Assembly (NCBI GenBank): GCA_000002445.1
Contig: CM000208.1
Span: 2,624,001 to 2,688,000 of the forward strand
Source: Trypanosoma brucei
Lineage: Eukaryota
Reading direction: 5' to 3'
DNA length: 64,000 nt
The translations under genes were made by a program, and so were the position numbers. The notes under the pieces were generated by a model that was given only the letters and a program-made list of their open reading frames with translations, was not told the origin of the DNA and ran no database searches. This document shows, one piece after another, positions 27,301-48,533 of the stretch. Each line of letters starts with the position of its first letter. Position 1 is the first letter of the stretch.

Positions 27301-27500
27301 ACAAGAAGCCCCACGGACGGCGGGGGCATGTGGAAGAAGATAAAAGAGGGGGAGAAAGTAGAGACTTTGCATGAGATCCGAATACATTTTACCCTTCGCA
27401 GGCAGCGAAGAGCAATAATAGTGACAACAATAACAACAACAACCGTTGATATTATATATATATATATATAAAGTGCTCTGTTTAAAATCCTTTCCACCAC
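24330..27500 (-). CDS. SET-domain protein (lysine methyltransferase family), about 1000 aa. The true start is probably MPPPSVG or MSWVED near 27.26-27.33 kb; the first about 55 codons of the track ORF translate an (AT)n/(GTT)n microsatellite.
   Basis: SET signatures LINHSCKPNAIILP (about 25555-25600) and GEEITVSYL (about 25440-25465), followed by a Cys cluster (FCCCCSFC...CPEC). Confidence 0.8.
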   Translation of the reverse strand: MVERILNRALYIYIYIISTVVVVIVVTIIALRCLRRVKCIRISCKVSTFSPSFIFFHMPPPSVGLLVMFDVRVVANPPGMSWVEDKSRDLESLRKRLKECGHDAESLTIVGRKLHEIAEQAHRKGEWGTLGVESGSGRDEEQAFQLFTHAGELLMRTVISILESFTQHEIHAATRVRIEKEEVDIIETLMRAANTDKTCSALSTLHCRWRRVYAASRAWRWCEAHVTLTSDYKPDLCSGGLYDMLPMTEWWWMPETVSAMTPPKAEATSSMCSDNDDGWLLFEDLFLSTTAPQSSECKRQLHDAETVTAFLNELNSTVDLFSRRIPAGYDELRRLYIGKADIQLQQARLFSHLSFVKGVPGSYQNATDGKTVVSGGVNGCHKLLWISREGLSTSMRCLIDALTAAQIAVAQFNAPCDDLIRRIRLAMFGVGLSSDGEGDTPHSACTPLLHPSVEPSSNRWRIKHGVGLIATNHIMEGAVVVKDRSLLLVGQVSPQKRKQERVTDIVEAPDGENAAVVNGALELFLRGGFVHKDELATSSIVKALRVGKLLGDPVEAPDMHSALHLLAMMPFSGESGMHPTQGAGRENVDYEAAIARDLADLMCCWRRCSVPLEAPQDFRATPKAEVLTPCRALLPLVSLINHSCKPNAIILPLCSEESQGSSSFGEGKGDVCVIALRDIEPGEEITVSYLSSVLIPKTLKDEQNGFCCCCSFCKSSTALLEGVICPECRQLIYDPEDAQKNCDKYQGSAGRQPTRGVHTYPCVLVDLSLPKGQRSYEHASDCSRADSDTYESLSRRILQGYANAVDKACEEFESTSTFGGVGASACEVEVEAGTVGSSEEVQGIEVDGMEEGSDDDDNGAGEDRLAQTALRRLMDLDSFACALPTTHYIRLQTRLECLALSLRSQLTTHDSHMLLLLCEELLEDLRQILPPNHPLLTGVRLQYALARSRHFAESADSSHTTEKHDHGCCGGVRECAATLSLPFLRDGMIRECIVHSFQEFYTTVGWKHEGCTQRELLSSFLEEYAVELLMCGIESIDHMTLLSLVYDASQEASVGL
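27425..27472. repeat. Compound microsatellite (AAC)n followed by (TA)9
   Basis: Direct reading: acaacaataacaacaacaaccgttgatattatatatatatatatata. Confidence 0.9.
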
Positions 27501-31000: not shown

Positions 31001-32714
31001 CTTTCCCTTTGTGGAGATTCACTCCATACACCGGTATTTTCCCGTCGGGGGATGTTAGTGTTGTCCACGTAAGGTTTCCTACCTTTCTCCCAGGCTGGGG
31101 AAAAACTCGCAGCACATCAACAACACTCCCATCGAAACCACCGTAAACGAAGTCTACCCACTCTTTTCCAAGATGGAGAAATTTGGAAACGTGTAGGTCG
31201 TCCATCAGCTCATAAGCTGCGCCTTCCATACGCGGTACACCCCTGAGAGAGTAGCCAACAGCAGTGCCAACAACACGCATCCAAAACTTGGATGTAGCGA
31301 GCAACTCAGTTCGGTTATTGACACTATATTGATCAAAAAACAACTTGATAAACACCTGGTGGAAGCCTTCAGTTAGAGAGACGTCAAACGAACTTTCATT
31401 CGATGGGTCGGCACTCCGTGGAGTGAAGCGTTTACCGTCGACATACACCACCGCTGTGGCATCGAAACCATATCGCACAGTGACACGCTGGGTCGCAGCA
31501 CTATAAAGAGAAAAAGCGTAGAATTGCAAACTTCTGTGCGGCACCTTCGCTACAAACACACCATCGTCTGCGGCCAACTCCCGCCACACATCCTGCAAGA
31601 AGTGCTCGCTGTCAATGCGCACCATACTCCTGCTGCCGACCTGCGGTCGAATTTGTGCCTCACCGCCAACGACAGTGGGAGCGAACCAATCCCTTTCGAG
31701 GGCAGTTGATCTTTCCACTGCACGTATTGCCGTGCCCGCTTCACCAAAATGCAGCAGACGTGGGACAAGTGCGTCAGGGTATGCTGACACGTCGGCTGGA
31801 AGCCGCCCAACAACATTCAAAACAGCTTTCAGTATTTTCGCGTTCGCGGTTTCAGGCCCATTCACAACTTCCACGACAATTACATACTCCCTAGCACCTT
31901 CCGCTGGGGGGCCGGCGTAATGTGTATAACGACCTGTTGGGCTCTCCGCGATGGTGGTGTTACCGTTTGCTGTGATACGGAACGTCACATTTCCTTGATA
32001 CGGCTCGCTGTGTCTGTTCCACACGTTCACTTCAAATACAACTGGACCATTGACAACCGCAACGGTTGGTTTGAACCTCCAAGCGAGGTACAACGCCGGT
32101 TTTGTTGGAACGAACACTAGTCGATAGGGCCGCCCCCATGCTGCAGGCTCACCAGGCGTCAAAGCGCAGCACCCGCCGGTATGACTCGTATCATCGTTGT
32201 TATCTCCCCAGAACGAGAGCGTCCTCCCACCACTTTCCTCCGTGTATCCTTCACCTGAGCCACCAAGGACACCGGTGTCTAGCGGTTCGGACACCACGCG
32301 TGTGTAACCATCCCATGCGGGATCACGCGGGTCTCGCGGGGCGTACACGTAGTTCCGCGTGGCGTTCATGTTAGTGAGGAGGTTGCACAAGGTGACCCCA
32401 GGAAGGGGAATGAGGTGATCCGCAAATGAGCCCATCTCGACAATCAAGACGTAGTTGTGTCCATGATAATCATACTCGACACATGGTTTCATGTAGTTCT
32501 TACCTCCATCGAATCCGTTTTGAATATCATCTGTGGTGATTCTGCGGGTACCGTCCAGGTTACCAACTACAACCCCATTTTCGGCAGCTGAAGCAAGTAC
32601 GGGCAAAACCGTAAACACAACAATAATGGCTAAAACATTTAAAAAAGTGCCTGGGGGGCTTAGTGCCATGAAGAATGCATTTCCCCTCCTCCTTTTTGCG
32701 CAAGCACACTTCAT
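28044..32714 (-). CDS. Large type I membrane glycoprotein, 1556 aa. It has an N-terminal signal peptide, many N-glycosylation sequons, an apparent C-type lectin-like domain, a single C-terminal TM helix and a 55-aa acidic cytoplasmic tail.
   Basis: N-terminus MALSPPGTFLNVLAIIVVFTVLPVLASA. C-terminus VFVVCSFIGVVVIFAIAAIVFSRMH then an acidic tail. CTLD-like segment ITWESAQNTCRKKNGMQLCSLSEIC...FWVPVNSAENGW...LCHAWRKDDGRW...LAVACC at about 29890-30200. Confidence 0.75.
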   Translation of the reverse strand: MKCACAKRRRGNAFFMALSPPGTFLNVLAIIVVFTVLPVLASAAENGVVVGNLDGTRRITTDDIQNGFDGGKNYMKPCVEYDYHGHNYVLIVEMGSFADHLIPLPGVTLCNLLTNMNATRNYVYAPRDPRDPAWDGYTRVVSEPLDTGVLGGSGEGYTEESGGRTLSFWGDNNDDTSHTGGCCALTPGEPAAWGRPYRLVFVPTKPALYLAWRFKPTVAVVNGPVVFEVNVWNRHSEPYQGNVTFRITANGNTTIAESPTGRYTHYAGPPAEGAREYVIVVEVVNGPETANAKILKAVLNVVGRLPADVSAYPDALVPRLLHFGEAGTAIRAVERSTALERDWFAPTVVGGEAQIRPQVGSRSMVRIDSEHFLQDVWRELAADDGVFVAKVPHRSLQFYAFSLYSAATQRVTVRYGFDATAVVYVDGKRFTPRSADPSNESSFDVSLTEGFHQVFIKLFFDQYSVNNRTELLATSKFWMRVVGTAVGYSLRGVPRMEGAAYELMDDLHVSKFLHLGKEWVDFVYGGFDGSVVDVLRVFPQPGRKVGNLTWTTLTSPDGKIPVYGVNLHKGKGSAVSYIAFSLHNGRNSFASVCWTFVTEGETDLFLDSTPAYSRGNGTERKQESVTTYLSPGWHSIILRTVAINGHSWFLSFKIHLGSCEVKGVNALGNDLPPYLTPVQAEAPVLTLMRLVKKESTVGAIPHDLEAEMSPSAQLTDFPLDSRPSSMILSTESVWVLGERRQYEWVAERSTNGLWRGESICGSFNQYRALALYAAEEMKVGIRVASHADHGLWVDGLFVGSSSSSSVGHYLYQVRLARGWNRLILKLNTTGKSRVFHAARGKITWESAQNTCRKKNGMQLCSLSEICPLGVAPREAASTPQKSFWVPVNSAENGWAQITVKRGNKTLLCHAWRKDDGRWSPAKDPHNRHLGQLAVACCGGTPAPPMWLSVIPPNRARGRVGYTYDFPPAPDRVVVKMPEGVTRSTPIVGDLQGGVPASSTKNDARYRTGGLTFVRESWSLLTRGKATALPNGSSEILVNRVACLAYSPCSLSVKGVKDGWYFSLLRTDTDESMVERFLQGEYAKIQRPSLSFSGVLPVAQKNAVVVPPLNIGSFYMIAYNPNMTGTLAATRLEYRTLSITPKEVVGTQASAFKAEGSALELGDAVLIPTGNPNSPADCGTHKCHQEFSRSTDGVAVIYSNVSFPFTQDLYGYNGSISCLCVCLSCSLPPYTAATVRVESSKVVGFPINITVTLPPAPADDIVAAIRPRMVRDGVVAQFYGRFDPRKGYAVNFTSSGTPRPDCTKPFCSVLSITEELLTCEVHVNTPLACNWTAVVSSGGKAVPFSSGSFTTLQVHPSPPSVEYVTGSCASISAWCVNDTKLTLHGNNFNPVGAEYNRVIVGDDTSDAAVLCDVLSASASTITCTLKVLQSKGEEIYPIGIETRFSEDEWGERQEAGYLVVGGGAFVGGWTEDPVHRSVWGKNSQVFVVCSFIGVVVIFAIAAIVFSRMHATSSDIDVALVEDDGMGHAGSTETEERTHEDTISRFRDSVATPPGERA

Positions 32715-36327: not shown

Positions 36328-37344
36328 TTAGTCCTTGCCTTGCCGTTGCCTTTCATGCGAGCCCCCGCGCTCCACCTCCTCAACTTTCTGCACTTCTGGT
36401 ACCCAGTGCCGTGTCGTCCGTTCAATCATATCCCTCAGAGTTGTCTTGCTGCTCCTACACTTACGGCACGCTCCCAGCATCTCAACCAGCATCACTGAAT
36501 CCGCAAGCCCAACAAAGCGAATGTCACCACCGTCAGCTTGAAGCTGTGGTCTAATCGTGGTAGAGATAAGTTCTTTCAACACCACCACTACCTCAGAATC
36601 GCCATCCTGTGGGATGGTATCTGGATGCGGGTGAGGAGCATCTGCGTCGATATGAGCCCGACCACTGTACAGGTGATCCGTGAGAAGGGCGCTAACATGA
36701 AGCTTTAGCTCACTCCAATGTGTGCTGCGCACCAGATCACGCAGAGCGGCCTCATCCACTGAGTCTAGTGCAACCCCGCCCTGCGAACCTAGATTATCCT
36801 CGGTGTTTTCGCCGCCACCGTCCACACTTTCGTTAGGGTCATTGCGACCAGAAAGTGTTTTTACCTGCTCGCAGTTTTCTTCCATGGCGTCCATAACCTT
36901 CCGCTGGAGCGCCGCTGACCGTTCGGCCGTTTCTTCCGGTGTCGCGGTGGGATTACCGCCGAGTCTAACAGCGTACTGTCGCACTGCAGCCGCCGTGTCG
37001 TCATCGTCCACACGGCGCACCGTCACAAAATCCCTCCCAATGGTAACTTCCTCCACCATAGGGAGATTGTGGAGAATGTGCTTGGCAAGGGGCGATTGAT
37101 GGCAGTTGTCAAAATCGAAACGAAGTGTATTTCCACTTTGTGGGAGAAATTCGACGCCTTTGACAAAAAACTTATAGCACGCTTCATTTGGCGTTTCGCG
37201 GAAGGAAACGAAGAAGCTCCTCTTGGAATCCACGTGTGCTTTGGGGGTTAGACATCCTCGAGTCAGCTCCTGCGCTATACGCGGGCAGCGGGCAACGTAG
37301 AAAGGACCAGCGCGGTAAAACAACCAGGAACCGACCCGCATCAA
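36328..37344 (-). CDS. NFU1: NFU1-type iron-sulfur cluster scaffold protein (Nfu_N plus NifU C-terminal domain), probably mitochondrial
   Basis: C-terminal NifU domain with the CxxC motif (...GDIRFVGLADSVMLVEMLGACRKCRSS...). N-terminal Nfu_N-like segment (FVKGVEFLPQSGNTLRFDFDN). Basic amphipathic N-terminus. Confidence 0.8.
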   Translation of the reverse strand: MMRVGSWLFYRAGPFYVARCPRIAQELTRGCLTPKAHVDSKRSFFVSFRETPNEACYKFFVKGVEFLPQSGNTLRFDFDNCHQSPLAKHILHNLPMVEEVTIGRDFVTVRRVDDDDTAAAVRQYAVRLGGNPTATPEETAERSAALQRKVMDAMEENCEQVKTLSGRNDPNESVDGGGENTEDNLGSQGGVALDSVDEAALRDLVRSTHWSELKLHVSALLTDHLYSGRAHIDADAPHPHPDTIPQDGDSEVVVVLKELISTTIRPQLQADGGDIRFVGLADSVMLVEMLGACRKCRSSKTTLRDMIERTTRHWVPEVQKVEEVERGGSHERQRQGKD

Positions 37345-37704: not shown

Positions 37705-40700
37705 CTACACGAAGTTGTACTGCTGCTGCCTTTCTTCCTCAGCGATGGCCTCGCTTAGCATCGATGGCACCTCCGTTTCAATTTCCTCGTTTGTTGCAAG
37801 CTGTGCTTCATACTTTTGCTTCAATTTCTTTTCCCAAAGTTGAATGTTTTCTTGGGCGCGGTCACGGTGACTTCGCAGTTCCGCTTCCTGTTGGCTTAGT
37901 TGTGCGTTAAATATTTGTTGCTGCCTGTGGAACTCTGATGCCTCCCCTCCTTGCATGGTCTCTAACGCCTCTTTCTGAAGCATTAATTGACCCTTTTTCA
38001 CCGCGATCATAAAGAGCTTCTGTAACCTTTCCTGGGCCTCAGCGGGTAGCTGTTGCACAGGAAGGCTCAGATCAGCATTGACCTCGCCAGCAGTGCGCTT
38101 TTGCATCGCTTCAATTTCCCGCAAGCCAAACTCCTTTGCAACGCGGTTATACAGCGCAACACAACCTTCGCACTCAAGCTCGCCGATAGAAAAGTTTTCA
38201 AACCCCCCACGGGCAACCAAGTCACTGCAGCGCATCGTTAGCCTGGTCTTGCATTGGGGGCAGCGAACCGTCACTTTCTCCTCGCAAGGTTTCGGCTCTT
38301 CCCCACATCGAACCCGTTGGAAGTGATATACAACAGTCATCGTTGGCCCATTGTCATTTACGCCCGTAACCACGCTTTGACCACACAGCAGTCGTTTTAG
38401 ACCGACGAATTCGCACGGAGAGCACGGTTCATAGCAGCTGCGCAAGCACGCGTGGCCACACCGCTGATCCCTTGCGCAGGGGAAGGGGCACCTGTCGTGA
38501 AGCAAGTTCGAGTCACCTTTTACACCACAAGTACAAGATTGTGAAAAACCGGAGGGGACGTGGCATGCGTGAAGACATGCATGCGCTGTGCTTGTGCAAT
38601 TGGTATAGGGGGCGAGGCAAAATGATCGACATTCCCGGACACCGATTACGCGGACCTTGCAACCACAGTAGTCTGCGTATGTTAGAATGGCTAACTGCCG
38701 ACTGCTCGCGTGTTCCGGGCAGCGTAGCGCCAGCGCTGCCCACTTGGCTTCGGTAGGCAGCCAATACTCACCGCGATCGCGTTGCTGTTGAGCAAATCCT
38801 TCTATTCGTTGCAACGGGTCAAGGAAGCGAAACAATTCCTTGCTCCCAATCAATAGCACACCACGGCGCGCACGTGATGCGGCTTTCCACAGCCATCGTT
38901 CCACACACCCAACAAATGTTTTTTCCGCCACCGTCTGTTCCCACCGTTTCTGCCGCTGCAAACCACTAACGTGGCCTATCGACCGCGCCAAACCCGAAAG
39001 GCAGAGCACCGCAACATCGCACTCTTCATCGTGCTCCACAAATGCGTCAGGAAGGAGCGGCAGCGTATAAACAACCTTGGTGAGATCCGCCTGATCCCCC
39101 TCGGCACAAAGCGACATTCCCTCTATGATGACGTCCCGATCGACAGAGGAACTGCAGTAAACAATGACCTCGTACGAGGGAGTAACCTGCTTGATGCGGG
39201 CGCGCGCAAATGCAGCTCCCAGGCCGTCACATGTAACGCCTACATTAATAGGCACAGCGTGCGTCCACAGTTCTACACAAGAGGAAGAGGAAAATCCCGG
39301 GATTTGGACGGGTTGGTGGGTACCCTCCCCCGAGAAGCCGTGATCACCGCTGGCCTCCGCCGTACTGGAGCCCACAACAGGTGCTTCACCTCGTGACGCT
39401 GCATAGTTAACGAGAGGACTATTACGGCACAGCAGGAGACCTTTGTGGAGCTCAGGTGCGCTAAAACGGAGGGCTTCACCCAAAACGGCAGTGGAGAAGA
39501 ATGAAGTTCCTTGAAGCTCCTTCTGGGTAGCCTTGAGGACTGCCAGGGCAATCTGTTGCTCTGATTGCAGCGGGGCGTCCATCTGCCGAGAAAGAACAAC
39601 CACAGACGCCGGTGAAAGCGCAAGGTAGAGTGCATCCTCTACTTGATCATAGTCATCAATCACAAGGTAGCGAGGCTGCCACATCCGGATGAAAAGTATT
39701 TCTCGCAGCAGCGAAACCCTCGTGGCAGTTAGCACAGTCACCTTCGATACCTGTGACGTTGCCGCCACCATATGGACCAGATCAAGAAAGAAGGAGAAGA
39801 TGTATTGCACCTCATTCATGATTCTTTTTTGCAAAAAATTGAGGAACTCGGTCTGCTTTTCGCCGTATACGGCCAGCCACCCAGCGGCCTCAGATTTGCC
39901 ATAATCGCAGAGGCCACGAGCGGCGTTTGGAAGGGTTACCGGTTTGAACGTTCCTCCCATCAAGGGCTTCATACTTCGCCACTCCGGCGCGTCGCGTGCC
40001 CCACTACCCCCGTCTGCTGAAAGGAAAGCAGCAGCATCCACCACTGTTGCGGATTCCCACAGATCCGTACCAAGGAAAGTCATCCACGACTCGCCCCGAA
40101 GCTTCGCCTCAGTGAAAGTGTCGTTTCTCTCTTTTTGTGTCATGATCCAAGATAGGAATTCGGTAAACAATTTCCATTCACCTTCGCCTGCAGCATCCAA
40201 TGACTCTTGCACGACACTAATGAGATTTCCCAAACGCCTGAGGGAACGTAACCACACGTTCAGAACACCTGTCAGGGGCGCCCTCATGGAACGGTCGTAG
40301 CTCTGCTGCAGGGCATCACTCAATGAGTGAAACTTATCCTTAACGTTGGCCTCGTGGAGCACTCGGTCGGTATACTTCGGAGGGTCGTGTTTCAATGCCC
40401 TCGGTCGCAATAGCAACGGCGCGTGGCAGCATTTCAATTTCTCACTCAACTGCACGTGCTCGTTGATGTTTAAAATCGCTTCGCTGGTGAGTTCCTCCAG
40501 TAAGTCACGCCCAGAAGAAGTATCTGCCTCATAAAAAAGATCATCCATATCTTCTACCATCGCAAGCTTGGCCACATAACCCGAAACCGCATGCCCGCTT
40601 TGCTTGATCAACGAGTGCCACAATGGCGCATGCTCTTTCCGAAGTTCCTCGTGTACTCTTCCACGAGCCAGGCTCGCCGCGTGCATTATTACAGTCTTGC

Positions 40701-43200
40701 CGCTTCCAACAGCACCAACGAGTGTACGGACGCCACGGCCCGACGCTGTCAAGGTGTGGATACACTCTACCTGCGAAGGAGTTAGCGCCGTGGCCTCCGT
40801 AAGGTCGTCAAGACAACGCCGTAGGTGCTCTCCGTCGGAGGGAAGTAACGTGGAGGTTACGAACATGTCTTCTACGCTTTCACTGCTGCCAAATGAAGCA
40901 GGTAGGTTAGTGCCTGCTACGTTGCCACTAATGCTGTCGTTTGCATTGTTTCCCCACCAAAGAATACGTCCCTGTGAAGCGCTACCCTTTTCTTGAAGAC
41001 TCTTCAGACGCCCTGGAGCATAAACATCCTTCCGCCCCTCATGCTGCAGGCGTCTTCGCAATGACTGAAGGTGCCGAATGTACAATATATACGAAATTGC
41101 CGAAGTTCCTTTTGGGAAAAACTGTGGAGGCTCCTGTCCGAGCTGCGGGCGCTGTGCGTCGCCCAACTTTTCACCGTCACCGTGCGCGTCTTCGTAAACA
41201 AACCAAGCTTCCGGAAATTTTTCACCTGTGTCTGAAGAAACCGACGCCGCCGCGCTTGCTCCTAAAAGCGAGGGCAGCATGTCTCCGTCACGGAGAACAT
41301 AGGCGTCGACTGTGCAAATGGTCCAACCCACCTCTCCATCAGTGCAGTTTTTGCTGGAGCAGTCGGACACATTGCACACGATAACGGGGAAAACAAAAAC
41401 ATTTCCGTTCAGTCTTACAATTAGATAACCAAAGGTAGAACCCCGTTCACCCAGCCTAGTGAAATCTTTCTTTTCCTTTGCCGCACGCAACGTGGCCGTT
41501 AGCGGCATGCCAAACAAAGCATGTAGCTGAATCTCATCCAAGGAATAACTGGTCAGAGACGAGCGGACCGCCGCTTGATTGACTCTTGTCACTGAGATAT
41601 GTGGCCACCACCGTTCCATTCTGTCCCCAGTACCCTCGCTCAACGGAGGTTCGCTAACGAAATGGTTTACTGCGCGAGCAGCTGGGCCGTACAGTTCCGC
41701 ATACGCTGCCAGTATGGAACTCTCAACAAAACGCGGCGCCTCCTGACGAAGATAGGGCGTGTAAGCACTTGCCATAGCCGCCATCATTTCCCTGACGGTG
41801 CCCCTCTGGAGCCCCCTAAGCTCTCTGATCTCCTGCATGGTTGGTGGGCAGTGAGCATTACCAACAATATTGGAAGACTCAACCATCTGCTCTTTGTGCC
41901 GCACCCAATGTACAAAGTGACGGAACAGACCGGCGCGTGCCAACTCTTCGACAAGCTGTGCAACTGGCTGGTTGCTATCTGCCTTCCCACCGTCGACACC
42001 TCTGCTATCTATCCATATGGATGTGAGGCGATGCAGTACAGCGTGGACACCGCGCTCCGCCTCTGTATGCAACTTTTGCTGCAGTGAATCACAATCCGTT
42101 TTGCCTCCGCAGTTGGTAGGTGCCCGCTCTCCGCACGTATAGCGAAGACCCAGCCATATGGCGTCCAACACCGACTGCTGGGCAGCAACCCACGATGACT
42201 GCGACACTGAGCCCGCCATTTCACTCAACACCAGCGTGAGACCGTCAACAAAAAGGGGTGAGGCGACGAACTGACGTATCGCTTCCCCTAGTATGTGTGG
42301 AAGTGGAGCGACAGTCTCTGCGTTGCTTAATATAGCAACGTAAAGGCGGACCACAGAAAAAATCACCTTCTTCAGTTGAAGCACTGTCCGAGCGGAGACA
42401 CCCGTCACCCTCTTGAGTTGTCGAAGTAGAAGGGGCAGCTGCAGGGAGCGGGACCAACCCGTCGAATTAACGCGGCGACTCGAGGAGGTGCAGTCCGCTC
42501 CGAGCCCTACAAGGGGTTGAACAATGCACGTTACCTGAGCCAAGCCAGGGGGATGTGATAAGATTTCTCGCACCCATTTCGCCGTAGTTACTGCATTCCA
42601 TGAGGCCGCGTGACACCAATCACCGGCATCCGCTAGTGAAGACGGATCGAAGGTTAAAAACTCCAGTAGGTGCTTACTCTCGTGTCCCTCATCACCGGGT
42701 TTACACGACGGACGTGCTCGTTGTAGTATCACGACGTCTCCCATACAGAAGCTCTGCCCCACTTCGGAAGGGACGTTTACGGGATCGATACTATCTGATG
42801 TAAAGAGGAGTGTTGTGTCGTTATTGGCTACAAGCCGAATAACACCCAGTTCCATGGGACCATCAAACACTGCTGAGACAGGTGGAACCAGGAAACTCCG
42901 CGCCACATGACGAAAGGCAGGTGAACTAAGCAATACATCAACGTCGGAAATCGAGCTAACGAGGCCACTGCACTCTAGATAGTCGGCCACGGCCTTTCTT
43001 GTGGTTCCGTTCGTAATCTCTATAGCTGCCGAGTAGGGTGAATGACTTGCGGCCCTCTCGACGATGCCCCCGCCATCACCGTCTCGCTGGCGTTTCGCAC
43101 CTTTGTTTGACACGGATGCTACTGGCATTAGGCGGCGACCCAGCTCAGCTTTCTGTACTTGATCTTTTTCTTCGTGGCGTGTCGGGCAACACAAACACAC
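37705..43200 (-). CDS. Giant P-loop NTPase (SF1-helicase-like core) with C-terminal NFX1-type zinc fingers and a coiled-coil tail; ZNFX1-like architecture, 1831 aa
   Basis: Walker A GAVGSGKT (about 40700-40725). Walker-B-like YLVIDDYDQ (about 39650). Cys/His-rich repeats with NFX1-type spacing, for example CGHACLRSCYEPCSPC and CLHACHVPSGFSQSC (about 38250-38850). Gln/Glu-rich coiled-coil C-terminus. Confidence 0.75.
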   Translation of the reverse strand: MCLCCPTRHEEKDQVQKAELGRRLMPVASVSNKGAKRQRDGDGGGIVERAASHSPYSAAIEITNGTTRKAVADYLECSGLVSSISDVDVLLSSPAFRHVARSFLVPPVSAVFDGPMELGVIRLVANNDTTLLFTSDSIDPVNVPSEVGQSFCMGDVVILQRARPSCKPGDEGHESKHLLEFLTFDPSSLADAGDWCHAASWNAVTTAKWVREILSHPPGLAQVTCIVQPLVGLGADCTSSSRRVNSTGWSRSLQLPLLLRQLKRVTGVSARTVLQLKKVIFSVVRLYVAILSNAETVAPLPHILGEAIRQFVASPLFVDGLTLVLSEMAGSVSQSSWVAAQQSVLDAIWLGLRYTCGERAPTNCGGKTDCDSLQQKLHTEAERGVHAVLHRLTSIWIDSRGVDGGKADSNQPVAQLVEELARAGLFRHFVHWVRHKEQMVESSNIVGNAHCPPTMQEIRELRGLQRGTVREMMAAMASAYTPYLRQEAPRFVESSILAAYAELYGPAARAVNHFVSEPPLSEGTGDRMERWWPHISVTRVNQAAVRSSLTSYSLDEIQLHALFGMPLTATLRAAKEKKDFTRLGERGSTFGYLIVRLNGNVFVFPVIVCNVSDCSSKNCTDGEVGWTICTVDAYVLRDGDMLPSLLGASAAASVSSDTGEKFPEAWFVYEDAHGDGEKLGDAQRPQLGQEPPQFFPKGTSAISYILYIRHLQSLRRRLQHEGRKDVYAPGRLKSLQEKGSASQGRILWWGNNANDSISGNVAGTNLPASFGSSESVEDMFVTSTLLPSDGEHLRRCLDDLTEATALTPSQVECIHTLTASGRGVRTLVGAVGSGKTVIMHAASLARGRVHEELRKEHAPLWHSLIKQSGHAVSGYVAKLAMVEDMDDLFYEADTSSGRDLLEELTSEAILNINEHVQLSEKLKCCHAPLLLRPRALKHDPPKYTDRVLHEANVKDKFHSLSDALQQSYDRSMRAPLTGVLNVWLRSLRRLGNLISVVQESLDAAGEGEWKLFTEFLSWIMTQKERNDTFTEAKLRGESWMTFLGTDLWESATVVDAAAFLSADGGSGARDAPEWRSMKPLMGGTFKPVTLPNAARGLCDYGKSEAAGWLAVYGEKQTEFLNFLQKRIMNEVQYIFSFFLDLVHMVAATSQVSKVTVLTATRVSLLREILFIRMWQPRYLVIDDYDQVEDALYLALSPASVVVLSRQMDAPLQSEQQIALAVLKATQKELQGTSFFSTAVLGEALRFSAPELHKGLLLCRNSPLVNYAASRGEAPVVGSSTAEASGDHGFSGEGTHQPVQIPGFSSSSCVELWTHAVPINVGVTCDGLGAAFARARIKQVTPSYEVIVYCSSSVDRDVIIEGMSLCAEGDQADLTKVVYTLPLLPDAFVEHDEECDVAVLCLSGLARSIGHVSGLQRQKRWEQTVAEKTFVGCVERWLWKAASRARRGVLLIGSKELFRFLDPLQRIEGFAQQQRDRGEYWLPTEAKWAALALRCPEHASSRQLAILTYADYCGCKVRVIGVRECRSFCLAPYTNCTSTAHACLHACHVPSGFSQSCTCGVKGDSNLLHDRCPFPCARDQRCGHACLRSCYEPCSPCEFVGLKRLLCGQSVVTGVNDNGPTMTVVYHFQRVRCGEEPKPCEEKVTVRCPQCKTRLTMRCSDLVARGGFENFSIGELECEGCVALYNRVAKEFGLREIEAMQKRTAGEVNADLSLPVQQLPAEAQERLQKLFMIAVKKGQLMLQKEALETMQGGEASEFHRQQQIFNAQLSQQEAELRSHRDRAQENIQLWEKKLKQKYEAQLATNEEIETEVPSMLSEAIAEEERQQQYNFV

Positions 43201-43480: not shown

Positions 43481-45811
43481 CTACTGATTGTCCACATCAT
43501 CATCCCAGCCGTCGCAACTATCAAGAGCACAACTTTCTTTAAATGCTTTCACCCCACTTACTTCTTCAATGTACATAGGGTCGTTGATACATCGTAGCAC
43601 AAAAGCTGACCCCTCGTCCTTGTATGAGCGTACGATAGGATCGGAGCATGCGGTGCACTGCTCGTAACGGCAACCATGGAGTGTGTAAACGTTGTGGTGG
43701 GCGACGCTACCACGTATTTGCTGTGGGATCGTGCCCAAAGGGCAAACAGCGCCACCTGCAACGGAATCGGAGACCCCCGGTGTCGCGTCCCTCTCACTCT
43801 GGACGTAAGGAGGACAGGCAAATCCCAGAGGGTGGTTGTAAAGTTGGGCAAGCAACTCCACTGCAATAGCAGATGCAATCGCTGAGAGACCAGGCCGAGT
43901 GACAGTGCACTGCTGGTCAAGCGTGCGAGCGGTAATACTGTCCCGAGGGGCGACGGAATCACTGCAGAAGTAGCAACCCAGACGAACGTACTTCGCCCCT
44001 TTGTCACTGCCTTCCGGTGGGTCCAATCCATGGCGCATAACAACATATGTGTCAAATGCAAGTGCAACATTAACGGTTGGTTTACAGTGTGCAGTGGCCA
44101 TTAGTGTAGGTAACCAGCGCGCTTCTCGGCTGTCAGTCAACAAGAACACCACATCGTGTGAGCGTATGAGTTCATCCAGAGCCTCTATTTCTGCCTTTAC
44201 TTCTTCCTCACGGGCCTTGTCCACGCGGTGACCGGGCATGTGTATTGTCAATGGCACACCACGTGCGTTTACACCAGGAAGGATACGTTTCAGTGCCTTA
44301 GCTGCGGCAATGGCTTTATTTCGTTCTTCTTCCCGTGGGTTGTTGACGTCAGACAACTCAAAGAGTGTTTGTCGAACCGGGTTTGAAAATGACACTTTAC
44401 CGCGATCCACAAGTGTGATATGCCTCACACCCCACATGAGCAACTGCCGTGCCACGTTGCAACCGAGCGTTCCTGTCCCTAACAGTAGAGCTTTGCACTG
44501 CGCCAACCTATCGAGGTTAAGTTCAGGCAGCGCGCGCCACTTCATCAAAGTTAAGTTAAGCCCAGCGCTCGCGTCGGCCAGTTTATCCGGAGACATCAGG
44601 GGGCCCAGATCAATAGTGTGAACACTCGAGGCTCCACCGTCGCTTTCCGGATCCACCCAGCCAACTACTTTGGCTGGACTAACACCTTCTACAACCTCCT
44701 CTAAGGTATAGGAAAGCGGCTCGCACATACAGTGAAAGAGGACGCTCTCTGACACATCGTTGTTCCGCACGCAGTATAAAGCAAACGAAGTAATGAGTGG
44801 CTGCGCCAATCGAAGAGCACTAACAATGTTGCGCACAGCCCATCCGGGCGAGCCTTCAGAAGAATAGTCCAGGAAAGCAATCAACGGCATTGAATGATTC
44901 GACGCTGCTTCCATAGACTTGGGCGAGAATGGTAGAAATATAACACACCCATCATCATTGTTTCCTTTACCCTTCACATCAGCAGCGGAAGATCGCACGA
45001 CAATAAAGGGATTGGGTCCATTCTCGGGTCTCTTCTGCAGTTTCTCCAACAAATGCGCATGAACGCGGTCAACAGCAAATTGGTTCGGAAAGTAAACACC
45101 TTTAAATTCAGACCCAGCAGCAGTATAACCACCTTTTACGCGCCGTTGAACAAAGACAGGAGAGCCAAGATCAAAAACAGGAAAGGCAACCGAATAAAGG
45201 AAACGGTGGCTTTTAAGGTCCGCGTACGTGTAAAGCGCCATAATTGAGAAGTTTACGTCCTCCCACGCTAGTTCCTCCGCAGAAGAGTATTCAGTTACGT
45301 TTTCCTCGCGCTTATTTTTGCAACAAGTATACAGAGGAAGAAGAAGTGACTTTTTCAAAATATCCCACAATGCGCTACGACGAGGAAGTTGGTAAAGTTG
45401 CTTAGCCGTATTAAAGTTTTGAATAAAGCCATCGTGTAGTGTGTGCACACACCGCAAACTCGTGCCGGTACCACCAGAATGGTCGTCGATTGGGTCTCCT
45501 TCACTCACCGATGTTTCGTCCCTAAGACGCCTCGTGACATTCACACGGCTCGCGGACAAGCTTTCCGCCCTCAGCGATACTAATGACCGATAGATACCTG
45601 AAGATGAGGAACTCGTAACACCAAATACTGGCGAGCGAATGATGGGCTCGGACAGCCTCCATTCATGTAGTTTCCTCTTTTCCAGTTCATACCAAAAACT
45701 GATCTCAATGCGAAAATCATGCATCAAATACTTCAAGCGCTCCATGGCTACCTTTTCAAACACAGCCGAAGGCAAAAATAAAAAAAAAGAAAAAAAGCAA
45801 ATAACACACAA
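43481..45811 (-). CDS. ATG7: Ubiquitin-like modifier-activating enzyme ATG7 (autophagy E1), about 755 aa. True start probably MERLKY near 45745; the first track codons (CFFSFFLFL) are the upstream pyrimidine tract.
   Basis: N-terminal ATG7 signature FWYELEKRKLHEWRL. LNLTLMKWRALPELNLD motif. ThiF/E1 fold LLLGTGTLGCNVARQLLMWGVRHITLVD. Catalytic-Cys context LGCYFCSD. Confidence 0.9.
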   Translation of the reverse strand: MCVICFFSFFLFLPSAVFEKVAMERLKYLMHDFRIEISFWYELEKRKLHEWRLSEPIIRSPVFGVTSSSSSGIYRSLVSLRAESLSASRVNVTRRLRDETSVSEGDPIDDHSGGTGTSLRCVHTLHDGFIQNFNTAKQLYQLPRRSALWDILKKSLLLPLYTCCKNKREENVTEYSSAEELAWEDVNFSIMALYTYADLKSHRFLYSVAFPVFDLGSPVFVQRRVKGGYTAAGSEFKGVYFPNQFAVDRVHAHLLEKLQKRPENGPNPFIVVRSSAADVKGKGNNDDGCVIFLPFSPKSMEAASNHSMPLIAFLDYSSEGSPGWAVRNIVSALRLAQPLITSFALYCVRNNDVSESVLFHCMCEPLSYTLEEVVEGVSPAKVVGWVDPESDGGASSVHTIDLGPLMSPDKLADASAGLNLTLMKWRALPELNLDRLAQCKALLLGTGTLGCNVARQLLMWGVRHITLVDRGKVSFSNPVRQTLFELSDVNNPREEERNKAIAAAKALKRILPGVNARGVPLTIHMPGHRVDKAREEEVKAEIEALDELIRSHDVVFLLTDSREARWLPTLMATAHCKPTVNVALAFDTYVVMRHGLDPPEGSDKGAKYVRLGCYFCSDSVAPRDSITARTLDQQCTVTRPGLSAIASAIAVELLAQLYNHPLGFACPPYVQSERDATPGVSDSVAGGAVCPLGTIPQQIRGSVAHHNVYTLHGCRYEQCTACSDPIVRSYKDEGSAFVLRCINDPMYIEEVSGVKAFKESCALDSCDGWDDDVDNQ
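45770..45810 (-). promoter_or_regulatory. Pyrimidine tract (purine-rich on the plus strand) upstream of the ATG7 start; candidate trans-splicing acceptor signal
   Basis: Plus strand reads ggcaaaaataaaaaaaaagaaaaaaagcaaataacacac, which is a pyrimidine run on the coding (minus) strand just 5' of the MERLKY start. Confidence 0.45.
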
Positions 45812-46096: not shown

Positions 46097-47557
46097 TTAC
46101 CCCTTAACGCACAACAACTGTCTGAGCACACATACAACCTCCACAAGATCATCCTGAGCACGCATAACGTCGTCAATGTCCTTGTACGCCATGGGTGTCT
46201 CGTCTAGAACGTCAGCGTCTTTTCGGCACTCTATGCCCTTTGTTGCCGTCTTATGCTGCTCCAAGGTGAAACGTCGTTTCGCCTCACCACGGCTGTAACG
46301 CCTGCCAGCTCCGTGGGAGCAGGATGAGTAACTTTTTGGATTACCTTTCCCACGTACAATGTAGCTTCTCGTTCCCATGCTTCCAGGAATGACCGCAAGC
46401 TCGCCTGCACGTGCGGATGTAGCCCCCTTCCTTGTTAACCACACGTGCACTCCAGCACTCAACTCCATACGCTGAACGTAATTGTGATGGCAATTTATCG
46501 CAAGTGCATCAACGGAAAACCCCCTACCTATTGTTTTGCGCACCGCGCGAAGCACGTTGTCCAGCATAATCTCACGGTTCAGCTTTGCGTAGAGTTGCGC
46601 CCAATAAACAGCTTCCACATACTGTTCGAAGTGCTCAGAACCCTCACGCAGATAGGCCAGGTCGGCACTCGGAAGATTTGCTAGGTGGGCCCCCATATCC
46701 TTCTTGGCGAGCTCGAAAAATATTGTTCCGATGCGGTTTCCAACTCCCCGCGAACCGCTGTGCAACATCACCCAGATGTTAGGTTGCCGGGAAACGCCTT
46801 TGGACGTTTCAGATGTGGCACCGCTGCTCCCTGAATTCCCAATTTCAACGTAACTTTCACCCACGTCCACCTTCCTTCCATCATCAACACATAGTTCAAT
46901 GAAGTGATTTCCACCGCCCAGAGTGCCCAAGTGTTCAATGTGGTTGCTAGTTTCAATGTGTTTTTGCATGCAACAGATCTCCTCAAAGCCTTTCTGCAAC
47001 TGCGTCCGCCACACAGCAGCGACGCTCTCTGGGATATTGTTTCGCCAGCTTCCCGCATCTAACCCACTTCTACCATTGTGCGTTCGCCCGTGTGGGACGG
47101 CAACTTCGATAGCCAGTCGGAGGGCAGCCAGTGACGACGGTAAATCTTCTTGTGTCAGGCTCGTACGCACCGCGATCATCCCGCAACCGATATCCACCCC
47201 AACACTCGCTGGTATGATTGCCCGTGTTGTTGGGATGACCGTCCCTACAGTGGCACCGTTGCTAGTATGTACATCTGGCATGGCCACAACGGGGTGCTGA
47301 ATAATATCACCCAACCGTGACAACTGCAGGAGCTGTTCAACTGCAGAGCGCTCCACCTCAACGCCACTCACCCAAGCATGGACATCCACACTACTTCCTT
47401 CCTCCCGAATTACGGTATACGGTTCTACGTCCGACCCATGATCAGTCTCACCTACGGCGCAACACTTCCGTCCCGGAAACACAGCACTGTCGGTGCGTCC
47501 ACCTCCACCTGCACCAGCGGTAGCGCGAATGCATAATTTTGTGACAGCGTGACGCAT
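46097..47557 (-). CDS. RTCB: RNA-splicing ligase RtcB (tRNA ligase, HSPC117 family), 486 aa
   Basis: RtcB signatures GGNHFIEL, HSGSRGVGN, SCSHGAGR, plus overall length and layout. Confidence 0.9.
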   Translation of the reverse strand: MRHAVTKLCIRATAGAGGGGRTDSAVFPGRKCCAVGETDHGSDVEPYTVIREEGSSVDVHAWVSGVEVERSAVEQLLQLSRLGDIIQHPVVAMPDVHTSNGATVGTVIPTTRAIIPASVGVDIGCGMIAVRTSLTQEDLPSSLAALRLAIEVAVPHGRTHNGRSGLDAGSWRNNIPESVAAVWRTQLQKGFEEICCMQKHIETSNHIEHLGTLGGGNHFIELCVDDGRKVDVGESYVEIGNSGSSGATSETSKGVSRQPNIWVMLHSGSRGVGNRIGTIFFELAKKDMGAHLANLPSADLAYLREGSEHFEQYVEAVYWAQLYAKLNREIMLDNVLRAVRKTIGRGFSVDALAINCHHNYVQRMELSAGVHVWLTRKGATSARAGELAVIPGSMGTRSYIVRGKGNPKSYSSCSHGAGRRYSRGEAKRRFTLEQHKTATKGIECRKDADVLDETPMAYKDIDDVMRAQDDLVEVVCVLRQLLCVKG

Positions 47558-48042
47558 AGATGCCTTAGGGGTAAAGGGTCTTCCTTTGGTCTGAAGTCGT
47601 ACTATTTCGCGCCGCTACCTCGCTTCGCTCCACATACGAGAAAAAGTGGCGGAGAGTTTTTTCCCACCAGTGAAATTACAAACGGTAAGCGATCAGCTAC
47701 GGGGTGACTAACATTTATTTACGGGTGGCTGCCGTGGAGATGCTTATGCATCCTTATTCTCTGGGTGTTCACCTTCCTTTCAGCCCATTTTATGTGGGCG
47801 TGAGCCCTGTGCACCTGCCTGCAGTGGCACCAGTGTCGATTGCGCAAACCATCATCCAACTTACCAGTGAGTTACACTTGGGATGCCACGGCTGGGAAGA
47901 GGTATCAACCCGCAATCATACCTGTGCAAAACGCGAAAGTCAAGTGGTTTTCCTTTTTTTTCTTAAAAAAAAAATGAAAGTCGCAGTAAGCAGGGGGGAG
48001 GGTTTAAACAGCCACTGCGGCTGCACCTTTTGGACGGAACGG

Positions 48043-48399
48043 CTAATTGGCAACATGGACCTCTGCGGACCGAGTGCTCGACATCATCGACAAGTGCTCT
48101 TTGAGCAGCTGAGAACGCTTAATGGTATACGCTCTTTTCGTACAATCCGGACAACAAGGGTTTCCCCTCAGCAGGTACCGCTCGGGACAACAATGAGTAC
48201 AAAATTGGCGACCGCACCAATCACAATTAGTGCTGGGAGTGAAGTAAAAACAGAATGGTTCTTCACACGACGAGCAGAAGCGGCCATCCCTGGGCCGAGC
48301 ACTTTCCGGAGCGGGTACATATGTTATTGGTTCTACTTTATCCTTCACTTCAGGAGGAACCTCTTCGTGTGTGCGAACGTTGCTAAAAATCGTGCCCAT
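48043..48399 (-). CDS. Small (118 aa) Cys-rich zinc-finger protein with an N-terminal myristoylation consensus (MGTIFSN)
   Basis: ORF on the array strand: MGxxxS start, Cys cluster CSSCEEPFCFYF...CDWCGRQFCTHCCPERY...CCPDC. The overlapping 262-aa plus-strand ORF 47704..48492 is judged spurious. Confidence 0.45.
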   Translation of the reverse strand: MGTIFSNVRTHEEVPPEVKDKVEPITYVPAPESARPRDGRFCSSCEEPFCFYFTPSTNCDWCGRQFCTHCCPERYLLRGNPCCPDCTKRAYTIKRSQLLKEHLSMMSSTRSAEVHVAN

Positions 48400-48533
48400 G
48401 ACAACAACCTAGAGCAGTACACCTACGGCCGCCGGGTCACAACGCCGGCGCAACAAGGGAAAGGCGATAGGAGGAACAAATGGCTCGTTTAGTCTGGTAT
48501 AATTAGAAGCAAAAAAAAAAGCTATGTGGACCT

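What the first reader, a model, noticed from the sequence alone, without database searches (positions are those of the whole stretch)
37705..43200. ZNFX1-like giant NTPase (P-loop/SF1-helicase-like core plus NFX1-type zinc fingers plus coiled coil)
The Walker A motif (GAVGSGKT) and a Walker-B-like DD box are about 360 aa apart, as in UPF1/DNA2-like SF1 helicases. Downstream are Cys/His repeats with NFX1-type spacing (CGHACLRSCYEPCSPC etc.) and a Q/E-rich coiled coil. That domain order is the hallmark of ZNFX1. In other eukaryotes ZNFX1 is tied to small-RNA inheritance or RNAi amplification and to dsRNA/antiviral sensing. A homolog in an RNAi-competent, virus-hosting trypanosomatid would be a candidate RNA-surveillance factor. 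About 800 aa N-terminal to the P-loop have no recognisable domain.
Basis: partly seen in the sequence, partly recalled or inferred. Interest (0 to 1): 0.7.

Follow-up and report, generated by a model that had tools for sequence, protein, structure and literature searches.

The report
Divergent ZNFX1-like helicase of trypanosomes
This unannotated 1,807-residue Trypanosoma brucei protein appears to be a very divergent relative of the RNA helicase ZNFX1, with a UPF1-type helicase core followed by a short zinc-finger stalk, but it lacks the RZ ubiquitin-ligase finger of human ZNFX1 and its function is untested.

Summary
The ORF is real. It is T. brucei TREU927 protein Q389M2/XP_823326 ("hypothetical protein, conserved"; probably Tb927.10.11170), with syntenic orthologs across trypanosomatids and relatives in Bodo and prokinetoplastids. 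The cited motifs are all present. Standard searches fail: Pfam gives only a sub-threshold AAA_30 hit at the P-loop, and PDB sequence searches find no helicase.

- An AlphaFold model of aa 770-1465 (pLDDT 74.5) matches UPF1-like SF1 helicases by Foldseek: Aquarius 3e-8, SETX and UPF1 about 1e-5, ZNFX1 2.7e-5.
- Profile-profile alignment to ZNFX1 runs colinearly from RecA2 through motifs V and VI and a CxxH knuckle into the first finger (95% probability; score 57.6 against a shuffled null of 13.8±3.1).
- ATP-site residues are invariant in the core family.

It differs from ZNFX1 in several ways. It has only two canonical finger units, a DD Walker B, degenerate motifs III and V, and no RZ finger. 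About 770 N-terminal residues are unassigned. The "coiled coil" shows no heptad periodicity.

The RNAi/antiviral role is untested. Conservation in T. cruzi, which to my knowledge lacks RNAi, argues against an RNAi-specific function. Verdict: a new variant of a known kind, of moderate interest.

The parts
37705..43128 (-). Coding sequence of the 1,807-aa protein, stop codon included (the maximal ORF extends to a GTG at 43200). T. brucei Q389M2 / XP_823326.1, probably Tb927.10.11170.
   Evidence: The gene ID is inferred from position next to ATG7 = Tb927.10.11180.
40822..43128 (-). N-terminal region, aa 1-769. Conserved across the family (for example the invariant PPGL at 193-196 and W225) but with no recognisable domain.
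40693..40788 (-). SF1-type Q-motif-like 'LTPSQVECIHTL' plus motif I / Walker A 'GAVGSGKT' (aa 781-812). Q786, G805, G810 and K811 are invariant and T812 is T/S in the 15 core-family sequences.
   Evidence: Sub-threshold Pfam AAA_30 hit at aa 782-819 in 6 of 10 orthologs; conservation.
39769..40641 (-). About 290-aa, mostly helical insertion inside RecA lobe 1 (aa 830-1120), flanked by two ~45-residue helices. It occupies the position of the 1B/1C insertions of UPF1-like helicases.
   Evidence: AF2 secondary structure; comparison with the human ZNFX1 1C insertion 688-978. Homology of the insertion itself was not tested.
39652..39663 (-). Motif II / Walker B 'VIDD' (aa 1156-1159). D1158 and D1159 are invariant in the core family. 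It is DD rather than the canonical DE.
   Evidence: predicted beta-strand at aa 1154-1157
39259..39426 (-). Low-confidence, poorly conserved linker between the two lobes (aa 1235-1290).
   Evidence: pLDDT below 50 at model residues 466-521
38809..39258 (-). RecA lobe 2 (aa 1291-1440). Contains motif V-like 'EECDVAVLCLSG' (aa 1368-1379; window 38992-39027) and motif VI-like 'SRARRGVLLIGS' (aa 1418-1429; window 38842-38877; R1421 invariant in the core family).
   Evidence: HHalign to ZNFX1/UPF1; fold matches; conservation.
38161..38721 (-). Cys/His module (aa 1470-1656). It comprises a 'CPEH' knuckle, two ZNFX1-type units (C1511-x4-H-x-C-x3-CH and C1557-G-H-x-C-x3-C-x3-C-x2-C), a beta-rich 'LxCGQ...HFQ' insert and a terminal C-x2-C...C...C-x2-C cluster. 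About 27 conserved Cys/His would fit 6-7 Zn sites (inferred).
37708..38061 (-). Q/E-rich conserved C-terminal tail (aa 1690-1807). No Cys, so no RZ finger. A coiled coil is not demonstrated.

Best explanation
The gene encodes a highly divergent member of the UPF1-like SF1 helicase group whose closest identifiable relative is the ZNFX1 family. The order of parts is:
- an unassigned ~770-aa N-terminal region;
- RecA lobe 1, split by a ~290-aa helical insertion;
- RecA lobe 2;
- a CxxH knuckle and a short ZNFX1-type zinc-finger stalk fused directly to the helicase;
- a conserved Q/E-rich tail.

Shown here: the helicase fold, the ZNFX1-type junction and fingers, and strict conservation of the ATP-site residues (P-loop Lys, Walker B DD, motif VI Arg) in the core family.

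Inferred: the protein binds and hydrolyses NTP in a nucleic-acid-dependent (probably RNA-dependent) way. It then acts either as a 5'-3' translocase or, given the degenerate motifs III and V, as an ATP-gated RNA clamp. The rigid zinc stalk and the C-terminal tail would present or recruit partners.

It lacks the RZ transthiolating E3 finger of vertebrate ZNFX1. It is also conserved in trypanosomes that lack RNAi. Its role is therefore more likely general RNP surveillance or remodelling than RNAi amplification or ubiquitin-based RNA entrapment.
For: - ZNFX1 link: HHalign of the family profile (aa 1290-1560) against a mini ZNFX1 alignment (human 1217-1450, P0048, P0043) gives Prob 94.8% and E 5e-8. 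It is colinear through VIVYC~ITILT, EECDVAVLCL~EENDIILLSL, SRARRGVLLIGS~SRAKKGMYCIGN, LALRCPEH~LRLCCQNH and the first finger. The score of 57.6 compares with a composition-preserving shuffled null of 13.8±3.1, maximum 26.7.
- Exhaustive profile search of 1.84 billion proteins: outside the family, the only hits with a recognisable domain are two fragments carrying an AAA_12 tail followed by 8-9 repeated finger matches. P0048 is a confirmed ZNFX1 homolog (E 3e-66 to human ZNFX1).
- Finger unit: CGHxCxxxCxxxCxxC occurs 7 times in P0048 and once here.
- ATP site: Q786, K811, D1158, D1159, R1221 and R1421 are invariant in 15 core sequences. Bodo keeps K811, the DD pair and both arginines.
- Insertion: human ZNFX1 also has a deviant Walker B (EEAA) and a ~290-aa 1C insertion before it.
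- Orthology: synteny with RtcB and Nfu in Leptomonas.
Against: - No curated model recognises the protein. There is no AAA_11, AAA_12 or zf-NF-X1 hit in any of 10 orthologs, and HMM searches against PDB sequences find no helicase.
- With the fingers removed, the helicase-lobe similarity is weak: HHalign P = 0.006 to ZNFX1 and 6e-4 to UPF1 motif VI, although the scores are about 9 SD above the shuffled nulls.
- Motif III (GDxxQL) and the QG of motif V are not recognisable, and Walker B is DD. Helicase activity may be impaired.
- There are only two canonical finger units, no RZ finger, and the N-terminus is unassigned.
- No biochemical, localisation or phenotype data were found.
Confidence: 0.62

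Rival explanations
1. It is a UPF1-like SF1B helicase of another lineage (Aquarius-, SETX- or UPF1-related, like trypanosome VEX2) that acquired Cys-rich fingers independently. The resemblance to ZNFX1 would then be convergent domain architecture, not family membership.
For: Foldseek ranks Aquarius (3e-8), SETX and UPF1 above ZNFX1 (2.7e-5). The helicase-only HHalign signal does not favour ZNFX1 over UPF1. There is no RZ finger and only two canonical finger units.
Against: The alignment to ZNFX1 is colinear across the junction: motif VI, about 35 aa, the L-x-L-x-C-x2-H knuckle, then C-x3-C...H-x-C-x3-CH. In the exhaustive search the only recognisable hits outside the family are ZNFX1-like fragments, and none of the hits scanned matched Pfam zf-NF-X1 or any other finger family. 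Both proteins have a giant helical insertion in lobe 1.
Confidence: 0.2
2. It is a pseudo-helicase. The fold is retained as a nucleotide-binding scaffold or switch, without translocation or unwinding activity.
For: Motif III (GDxxQL, which couples hydrolysis to translocation) and the QG of motif V are not recognisable. Walker B is DD instead of DE. The most distant relatives (Perkinsela P0041, P0054) have lost the P-loop lysine.
Against: K811, D1158, D1159 and the motif VI Arg R1421 are invariant across all 15 core-family members and kept in Bodo, which indicates selection on the ATP site. Human ZNFX1 is an active helicase with a non-canonical EEAA Walker B.
Confidence: 0.25
3. It is an RNAi-amplification, small-RNA-inheritance or antiviral dsRNA-sensing factor, as ZNFX-1, Hrr1 and vertebrate ZNFX1 are.
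For: Homology to ZNFX1. ZNFX1 relatives act in RNAi (C. elegans, S. pombe Hrr1) and in antiviral immunity (abstracts). T. brucei is RNAi-competent (own knowledge).
Against: Orthologs of 47-50% identity are retained in T. cruzi, T. cruzi marinkellei and T. rangeli. T. cruzi lacks the RNAi machinery, and as far as I recall T. rangeli does too (own knowledge). The RZ finger, one of the two E3 domains ZNFX1 uses for ubiquitin signalling, is absent. No viruses are known in T. brucei (own knowledge). No experimental data were found.
Confidence: 0.12
4. It is an SF2 Snf2-type DNA translocase or chromatin remodeler.
Against: The margin over UPF1 and ZNFX1 is under 1 Z unit, with far fewer aligned residues (206-312 against 341-384). 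No Snf2 protein is among the 30 significant Foldseek hits. There is no SNF2 or Helicase_C Pfam signal. The motif VI 'SRARxGxxxIG' and the Q-motif 'LTxSQ' are of SF1B type.
Confidence: 0.03

Closest known systems
ZNFX1 family (human ZNFX1, PDB 9q9z; C. elegans ZNFX-1; S. pombe Hrr1)
   Same: - UPF1-like SF1 core with a non-canonical Walker B.
- A ~290-aa helical insertion in lobe 1 between motifs I and II.
- Motif VI 'SRA[RK]xGxxxIG'.
- A CxxH knuckle about 35-40 aa after motif VI.
- A directly fused stalk built from C-x-H-x-C-x3-C units.
- Overall size of about 1,800-1,900 aa, with a long N-terminal extension.

   Different: - Sequence identity is only about 11-20% in aligned parts, and no Pfam or PDB sequence hit is found.
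- Walker B is DD, against EEAA in human ZNFX1.
- Motifs III and V are degenerate.
- Two canonical finger units, against at least 10 in the metazoan-type fragments P0043 and P0048.
- A unique 'LxCGQ...HFQ' beta-rich insert.
- No RZ finger. The Miz/Z-RING and the armadillo domain are unverified.
- A Q/E-rich tail instead of E3 modules.

Other UPF1-like SF1B helicases (Aquarius, SETX/Sen1, UPF1, IGHMBP2, DNA2; in T. brucei, VEX2)
   Different: None of them has a C-terminal NFX1/ZNFX1-type finger stalk fused after motif VI. UPF1's zinc-binding CH domain is N-terminal (own knowledge). VEX2 is a different gene on another chromosome (own knowledge; only shows it is a UPF1-related T. brucei protein).
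NFX1 / NFXL1-type zinc-finger proteins (transcription factor / E3 ligases)
   Same: They share the C-x(1-6)-H-x-C-x3-C finger half-pattern (own knowledge of NFX1; for this protein).
   Different: NFX1 proteins have no helicase (own knowledge). None of the hits to the family profile that I scanned carries a Pfam zf-NF-X1 domain. Pfam zf-NF-X1 does not match this protein.

Membership tests
UPF1-like SF1 (SF1B) helicases | Two RecA-like lobes with SF1B topology | tested here: met
UPF1-like SF1 (SF1B) helicases | Motif I (GxxGxGK[ST]) preceded by a Q-motif-like 'L[NT]xSQ' | tested here: met
   LTPSQVECIHTL...GAVGSGKT at aa 781-812. Q786 and K811 are invariant in 15 core sequences. Weak AAA_30 hit over exactly this stretch.
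UPF1-like SF1 (SF1B) helicases | Motif II DExx (catalytic Glu) | tested here: not met
   The sequence is an invariant 'DD' (D1158, D1159), not DE. Human ZNFX1 itself deviates (EEAA) and is active, so this does not exclude activity.
UPF1-like SF1 (SF1B) helicases | Motif III (GDxxQLxP) and motif V (TVDxxQGxExD) | tested here: not met
   The motif III position reads 'VVVLSRQMDAP'. Motif V keeps only the 'ExDxxVxxLS' half, without the QG.
UPF1-like SF1 (SF1B) helicases | Motif VI ([ST]RA[RK]xGxxxxG with an arginine finger) | tested here: met
   SRARRGVLLIGS at aa 1418-1429, with R1421 invariant in the core family. It aligns to ZNFX1 SRAKKGMYCIGN and UPF1 TRARYGVIIVGN.
UPF1-like SF1 (SF1B) helicases | Pfam AAA_11 / AAA_12 above the gathering score | tested here: not met
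   No hit in any of 10 orthologs, nor in the distant members scanned.
UPF1-like SF1 (SF1B) helicases | Nucleic-acid-stimulated ATPase and 5'-3' translocation | not testable with these tools
   Requires biochemistry.
ZNFX1 family | Zinc-finger stalk fused directly after helicase lobe 2 (CxxH knuckle followed by C-x-H-x-C-x3-C units) | tested here: met
   Colinear HHalign across the junction: Prob 94.8%, E 5e-8, score 57.6 against a null of 13.8±3.1. Finger region against P0048 and P0043: 92-94%.
ZNFX1 family | Long array of NFX1-type fingers | tested here: not met
   Two canonical half-pattern units (aa 1511 and 1557), against 10 each in the ZNFX1-like fragments P0048 and P0043. The remaining Cys/His are divergent.
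ZNFX1 family | Very large 1C insertion in lobe 1 between motifs I and II | tested here: inconclusive
   A ~290-aa helical insertion lies at the equivalent place, against human 688-978. Sequence or structural homology of the insertion itself could not be tested.
ZNFX1 family | C-terminal RZ finger (transthiolating E3; human C1860) | tested here: not met
   There is no Cys after aa 1656 and only two His. RZ is also absent from C. elegans ZNFX-1, so it is not universal in the family.
ZNFX1 family | Miz / Z-RING E3 domain (human 1566-1632) | not tested
The terminal cluster C1623-x2-C1626...C1634...C1653-x2-C1656 is a candidate only.
ZNFX1 family | N-terminal armadillo-type domain | not tested
   aa 1-769 have no Pfam or PDB sequence hit and no structure model was made.
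ZNFX1 family | Orthology (reciprocal best hit or monophyly with ZNFX1/Hrr1/ZNFX-1) | not tested
   Only one direction was tested: the family profile's only recognisable hits outside the family are ZNFX1-like fragments.
NFX1-type zinc finger (Pfam PF01422) | Match to the Pfam zf-NF-X1 model | tested here: inconclusive
   No match at E<=1. The genuine ZNFX1 homolog P0048, with 10 units, also gives no zf-NF-X1 hit at E<=0.01, so the test does not discriminate. My recalled strict pattern also fails on true ZNFX1 fingers.
Snf2-type SF2 ATPases | SNF2-family sequence signature, or best fold match | tested here: not met

The most novel reading that the evidence does not exclude
Kinetoplastids and their relatives (Bodo, prokinetoplastids, perhaps diplonemids) retain an ancient, stripped-down ZNFX1-lineage enzyme: helicase, short zinc stalk and a conserved tail, without the RZ finger. 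It would work independently of RNAi as an RNA-surveillance or RNP-remodelling ATPase. In a bolder version, its terminal Cys cluster (C1608-C1656) is a Z-RING/Miz-like E3 domain, which would make it the first RNA-helicase-coupled ubiquitin or UBL ligase in trypanosomes. Either way it would show which ZNFX1 modules are ancestral.
Probability: 0.15. Interest if true: 0.75.

Novelty: new variant of a known kind. Interest (0 to 1): 0.5.

Why it matters
ZNFX1 has recently been shown to be an auto-inhibited SF1 RNA helicase coupled to two unusual E3 ligase domains, and it is essential for human antiviral immunity. Its relatives act in small-RNA pathways in worms and fission yeast.

A deeply divergent relative in Euglenozoa is invisible to Pfam and annotated only as "hypothetical protein, conserved". 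It would:
- give a function-guiding annotation to a conserved 200-kDa trypanosomatid protein;
- show that the helicase-plus-zinc-stalk unit predates, or can exist without, the RZ module;
- provide a tractable system (T. brucei genetics) for asking what that core unit does;
- bear on the RNAi question, because its retention in T. cruzi, which to my knowledge lacks RNAi, suggests an RNAi-independent core function.

The practical lesson is that this family needs a dedicated profile, since none of the curated models detects it.

Tried and rejected
- Pfam on the protein and on all 10 orthologs gave only a sub-threshold AAA_30 or AAA_16 hit at the P-loop.
- phmmer and hmmsearch against PDB sequences with the single protein, the 10-sequence profile and the 21-sequence profile found nothing meaningful.
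- The second and third word-indexed homolog searches, using alignments (the last one including ZNFX1-like fragments), returned only the same 9-10 proteins. Full-length ZNFX1 sequences could therefore not be retrieved, and lobe 1 could not be compared by profile.
- The first AF2 run (aa 746-1700, 10 sequences) was poor (pLDDT 50.9). Its Foldseek hits were helicases but not significant.
- I recalled the human ZNFX1 sequence beyond residue 1450 in order to test for a Miz/Z-RING match. No PDB chain verified it, so I did not use it.
- A strict NFX1-type regex, also from memory, matched nothing, but it also fails on genuine ZNFX1 fingers. I dropped it as a criterion.
- The heptad-periodicity test on the C-terminal tail was negative.
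- Literature searches for ZNFX1 with Trypanosoma, for Tb927.10.11170, and for NFX1-type with kinetoplastid found nothing relevant. VEX2 is a different UPF1-like gene.
Full report
**What is there**

The window is Trypanosoma brucei brucei TREU927. The protein is held on a 4.05-Mb contig, consistent with chromosome 10. All long ORFs lie on the minus strand, as expected for one polycistronic unit.

The flagged ORF (37705-43200, minus strand, 1,831 codons from a GTG) is real. From its first ATG (43128) it encodes 1,807 aa. This is 100% identical to XP_823326.1 / UniProt Q389M2, annotated "hypothetical protein, conserved".

Its neighbours are Nfu (36328-37344), ATG7 (43481-45811) and RtcB (46097-47557). 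ATG7 is Tb927.10.11180 (PMC5349162), so this gene is probably Tb927.10.11170. That ID is inferred from position only, and no paper in the library mentions it.

**The observation**

- GAVGSGKT at aa 805-812.
- An invariant DD at aa 1158-1159, 353 aa downstream.
- CGHACLRSCYEPCSPC at aa 1557-1572.
- A tail with 17% Q, 16% E and no Cys.

Ten kinetoplastid orthologs (Trypanosoma 47-57% identity; Phytomonas and Leptomonas 26-29%) cover the full length and keep these motifs invariant. The Leptomonas ortholog also sits between RtcB and Nfu. This is a conserved gene, not a chance ORF.

**Standard domain searches fail**

- Pfam finds only a sub-threshold AAA_30 hit (20.4 bits against a cut-off of 27) over aa 782-819, in 6 of 10 orthologs. 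There is no AAA_11, AAA_12 or zf-NF-X1 hit.
- Sequence and profile searches against all PDB chains find no helicase.

**Extent of the family**

An exhaustive HMM search with aa 746-1700 against 1.84 billion representative proteins found 43 hits.

- Full-length matches are kinetoplastid-type proteins.
- Weaker matches cover mainly the Cys-rich module. They come from Bodo saltans (2,235 aa), the prokinetoplastids Papus and Perkinsela, Cryptobia, the diplonemid Rhynchopus, and a shorter (945-964 aa) Trypanosoma vivax paralog.
- Only two hits carry a domain that passes Pfam's threshold, P0043 (a mayfly protein) and P0048. Both have an AAA_12 helicase tail followed by 8-9 repeated matches to the finger part of the profile.
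- P0048 is a genuine ZNFX1 homolog, with E = 3e-66 to human ZNFX1 (PDB 9q9z).
- None of the hits I scanned matched Pfam zf-NF-X1 or any other finger family.

**Fold of the P-loop region**

The first AlphaFold run (aa 746-1700, 10 sequences) was poor, with pLDDT 50.9. A second run on aa 770-1465 with 21 family sequences gave pLDDT 74.5 and pTM 0.67.

Foldseek against the PDB returned 30 hits at E<=1e-3, almost all UPF1-like SF1 helicases:

| Match | E-value |
|---|---|
| Aquarius | 3e-8 |
| SETX | 1e-5 |
| UPF1 | 1.2e-5 |
| ZNFX1 helicase core (9q9z) | 2.7e-5 |
| DNA2 | 5.7e-5 |
| IGHMBP2 | 4e-4 |

A helicase fold is thus established. The SF1B assignment rests on the Foldseek ranking, the aligned lengths and the motifs.

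The model shows a beta-strand, the P-loop, a ~45-residue helix, a mostly helical insertion (aa ~830-1120), a second ~45-residue helix, and then the Walker B strand. [quoted passage not shown]

**Specific link to ZNFX1**

The printed alignment gave me human ZNFX1 residues 1217-1450. I aligned the family profile (aa 1290-1560) to a small ZNFX1 alignment (human, P0048, P0043). HHalign gave 94.8% probability and E = 5e-8 over 169 columns. The alignment is colinear:

| Element | Trypanosome | Human ZNFX1 |
|---|---|---|
| RecA2 strand | VIVYC | ITILT |
| Motif V | EECDVAVLCL | EENDIILLSL |
| Motif VI | SRARRGVLLIGS | SRAKKGMYCIGN |
| Knuckle | LALRCPEH | LRLCCQNH |
| First finger | C-x3-C...H-x-C-x3-CH | C-x3-C...H-x-C-x3-CH |

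Controls:
- Shuffling columns separately within the helicase half and the finger half keeps the Cys-rich composition. The null score is 13.8±3.1 (maximum 26.7, n=60), against 57.6 observed.
- With the fingers removed the signal is weak by HHalign's own statistics: P = 0.006 to ZNFX1 and 6e-4 to UPF1 motif VI. The scores are still about 9 SD above the shuffled nulls, and the register is the same.
- The finger region alone aligns to P0048 and P0043 at 92-94% probability.
- The unit CGHxCxxxCxxxCxxC occurs seven times in P0048, at a period of about 53 aa, and once here.

**Active-site conservation**

Q786, G805, G810, K811, D1158, D1159, R1221 (in an 'LRF' that resembles the QYRM of motif IV) and R1421 (motif VI) are invariant in 15 core-family sequences, and T812 is T or S. 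Bodo keeps K811, the DD pair and both arginines. The most distant relatives (Perkinsela, P0054) have lost the P-loop lysine. This pattern indicates selection for nucleotide binding and hydrolysis in trypanosomatids.

Against full helicase activity:
- Walker B is DD, not DE.
- Motif III (GDxxQL) and the QG of motif V are not recognisable.

**Differences from ZNFX1**

- The half-pattern C-x(1-6)-H-x-C-x3-C occurs only twice (aa 1511 and 1557), against ten times each in P0048 and P0043.
- The rest of the module (about 27 conserved Cys/His between aa 1470 and 1656, enough for roughly 6-7 Zn sites by inference) includes a lineage-specific 'LxCGQ...HFQ' insert and a terminal C-x2-C...C...C-x2-C cluster.
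- There is no Cys after aa 1656, so the RZ finger is absent. C. elegans ZNFX-1 also lacks RZ.
- I could not test whether the terminal Cys cluster corresponds to the Miz/Z-RING E3 domain.
- The N-terminal 769 aa are conserved but unassigned.
- The tail shows no heptad periodicity (P = 0.23-0.74), so a coiled coil is not demonstrated.

**Mechanism**

Shown: an SF1B helicase fold, a ZNFX1-type junction and fingers, and a conserved ATP site.

Inferred: a nucleic-acid-dependent (probably RNA-dependent) NTPase. It would work as a 5'-3' translocase or, given the degenerate coupling motifs, as an ATP-gated clamp. A rigid zinc stalk and a conserved tail would act as the output or recruitment module.

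Orthologs with intact motifs occur in T. cruzi, T. c. marinkellei and T. rangeli. T. cruzi lacks RNAi and, as far as I recall, so does T. rangeli; T. brucei is not known to carry viruses (own knowledge). An RNAi-specific role is therefore unlikely.

**Verdict**

The architectural interpretation (ZNFX1-like SF1 helicase plus ZNFX1-type fingers) is supported by fold and profile evidence, although every curated model misses it. The coiled coil, the expected Pfam hits and the proposed function are not supported.

It is best described as a new, highly divergent variant of the ZNFX1/UPF1-like helicase kind, restricted to kinetoplastids and their relatives. Interest is moderate (0.5).

Noticed in passing
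window 7898-13767 (long minus-strand ORFs 7857-10094 and 10189-15138): Two very large in-frame tandem arrays lie here: an 87/99-nt unit in about 41 copies (7898-11619) and a 57-nt unit in about 38 copies (11613-13767). They sit inside a giant repeat-protein gene with no Pfam domain. The long ORFs on both strands, and probably the extreme AT skew, reflect the repeats.
   Followed up: partly
P0042 / P0061 (Trypanosoma vivax, 945-964 aa; UniRef G0U9F4) and similar proteins P0038, P0046-P0055: A second, shorter protein family in trypanosomes, diplonemids and others carries the same CPxH-plus-Cys-rich module near its N-terminus. BLASTP gives 2e-19 to aa 1451-1684 of the T. brucei protein. One member (P0055) has a sub-threshold AAA_12 hit just upstream of the module, so these may be helicase-lobe remnants fused to the stalk, or truncated gene models.
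   Followed up: partly
window 18031-19737, 24330-27500, 28044-32714, 36328-37344, 43481-45811, 46097-47557, 55711-58449 (all minus strand): The neighbouring genes are a DNA photolyase, a SET-domain protein, a 1,556-aa protein with DUF7495 to DUF7498, Nfu, ATG7 (Tb927.10.11180), the RtcB tRNA ligase and a BRE1/TMF-like protein. In Leptomonas the ortholog lies directly between RtcB and Nfu, with no ATG7 between them.
   Followed up: partly
P0041 (Perkinsela sp.) and P0054, aligned to aa 805-812 of the T. brucei protein: The most distant family members have lost the P-loop lysine (for example 'GDLGNRST') and the second Walker B Asp, but keep the Cys-rich module. In those lineages the zinc module appears to outlive the ATPase.
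   Followed up: no
window 41599-42087 (+) and 47704-48492 (+): These are plus-strand ORFs of 162 aa (antisense, inside the helicase gene) and 262 aa (between minus-strand genes). They are probably chance ORFs in a minus-strand polycistron and were not examined.
   Followed up: no
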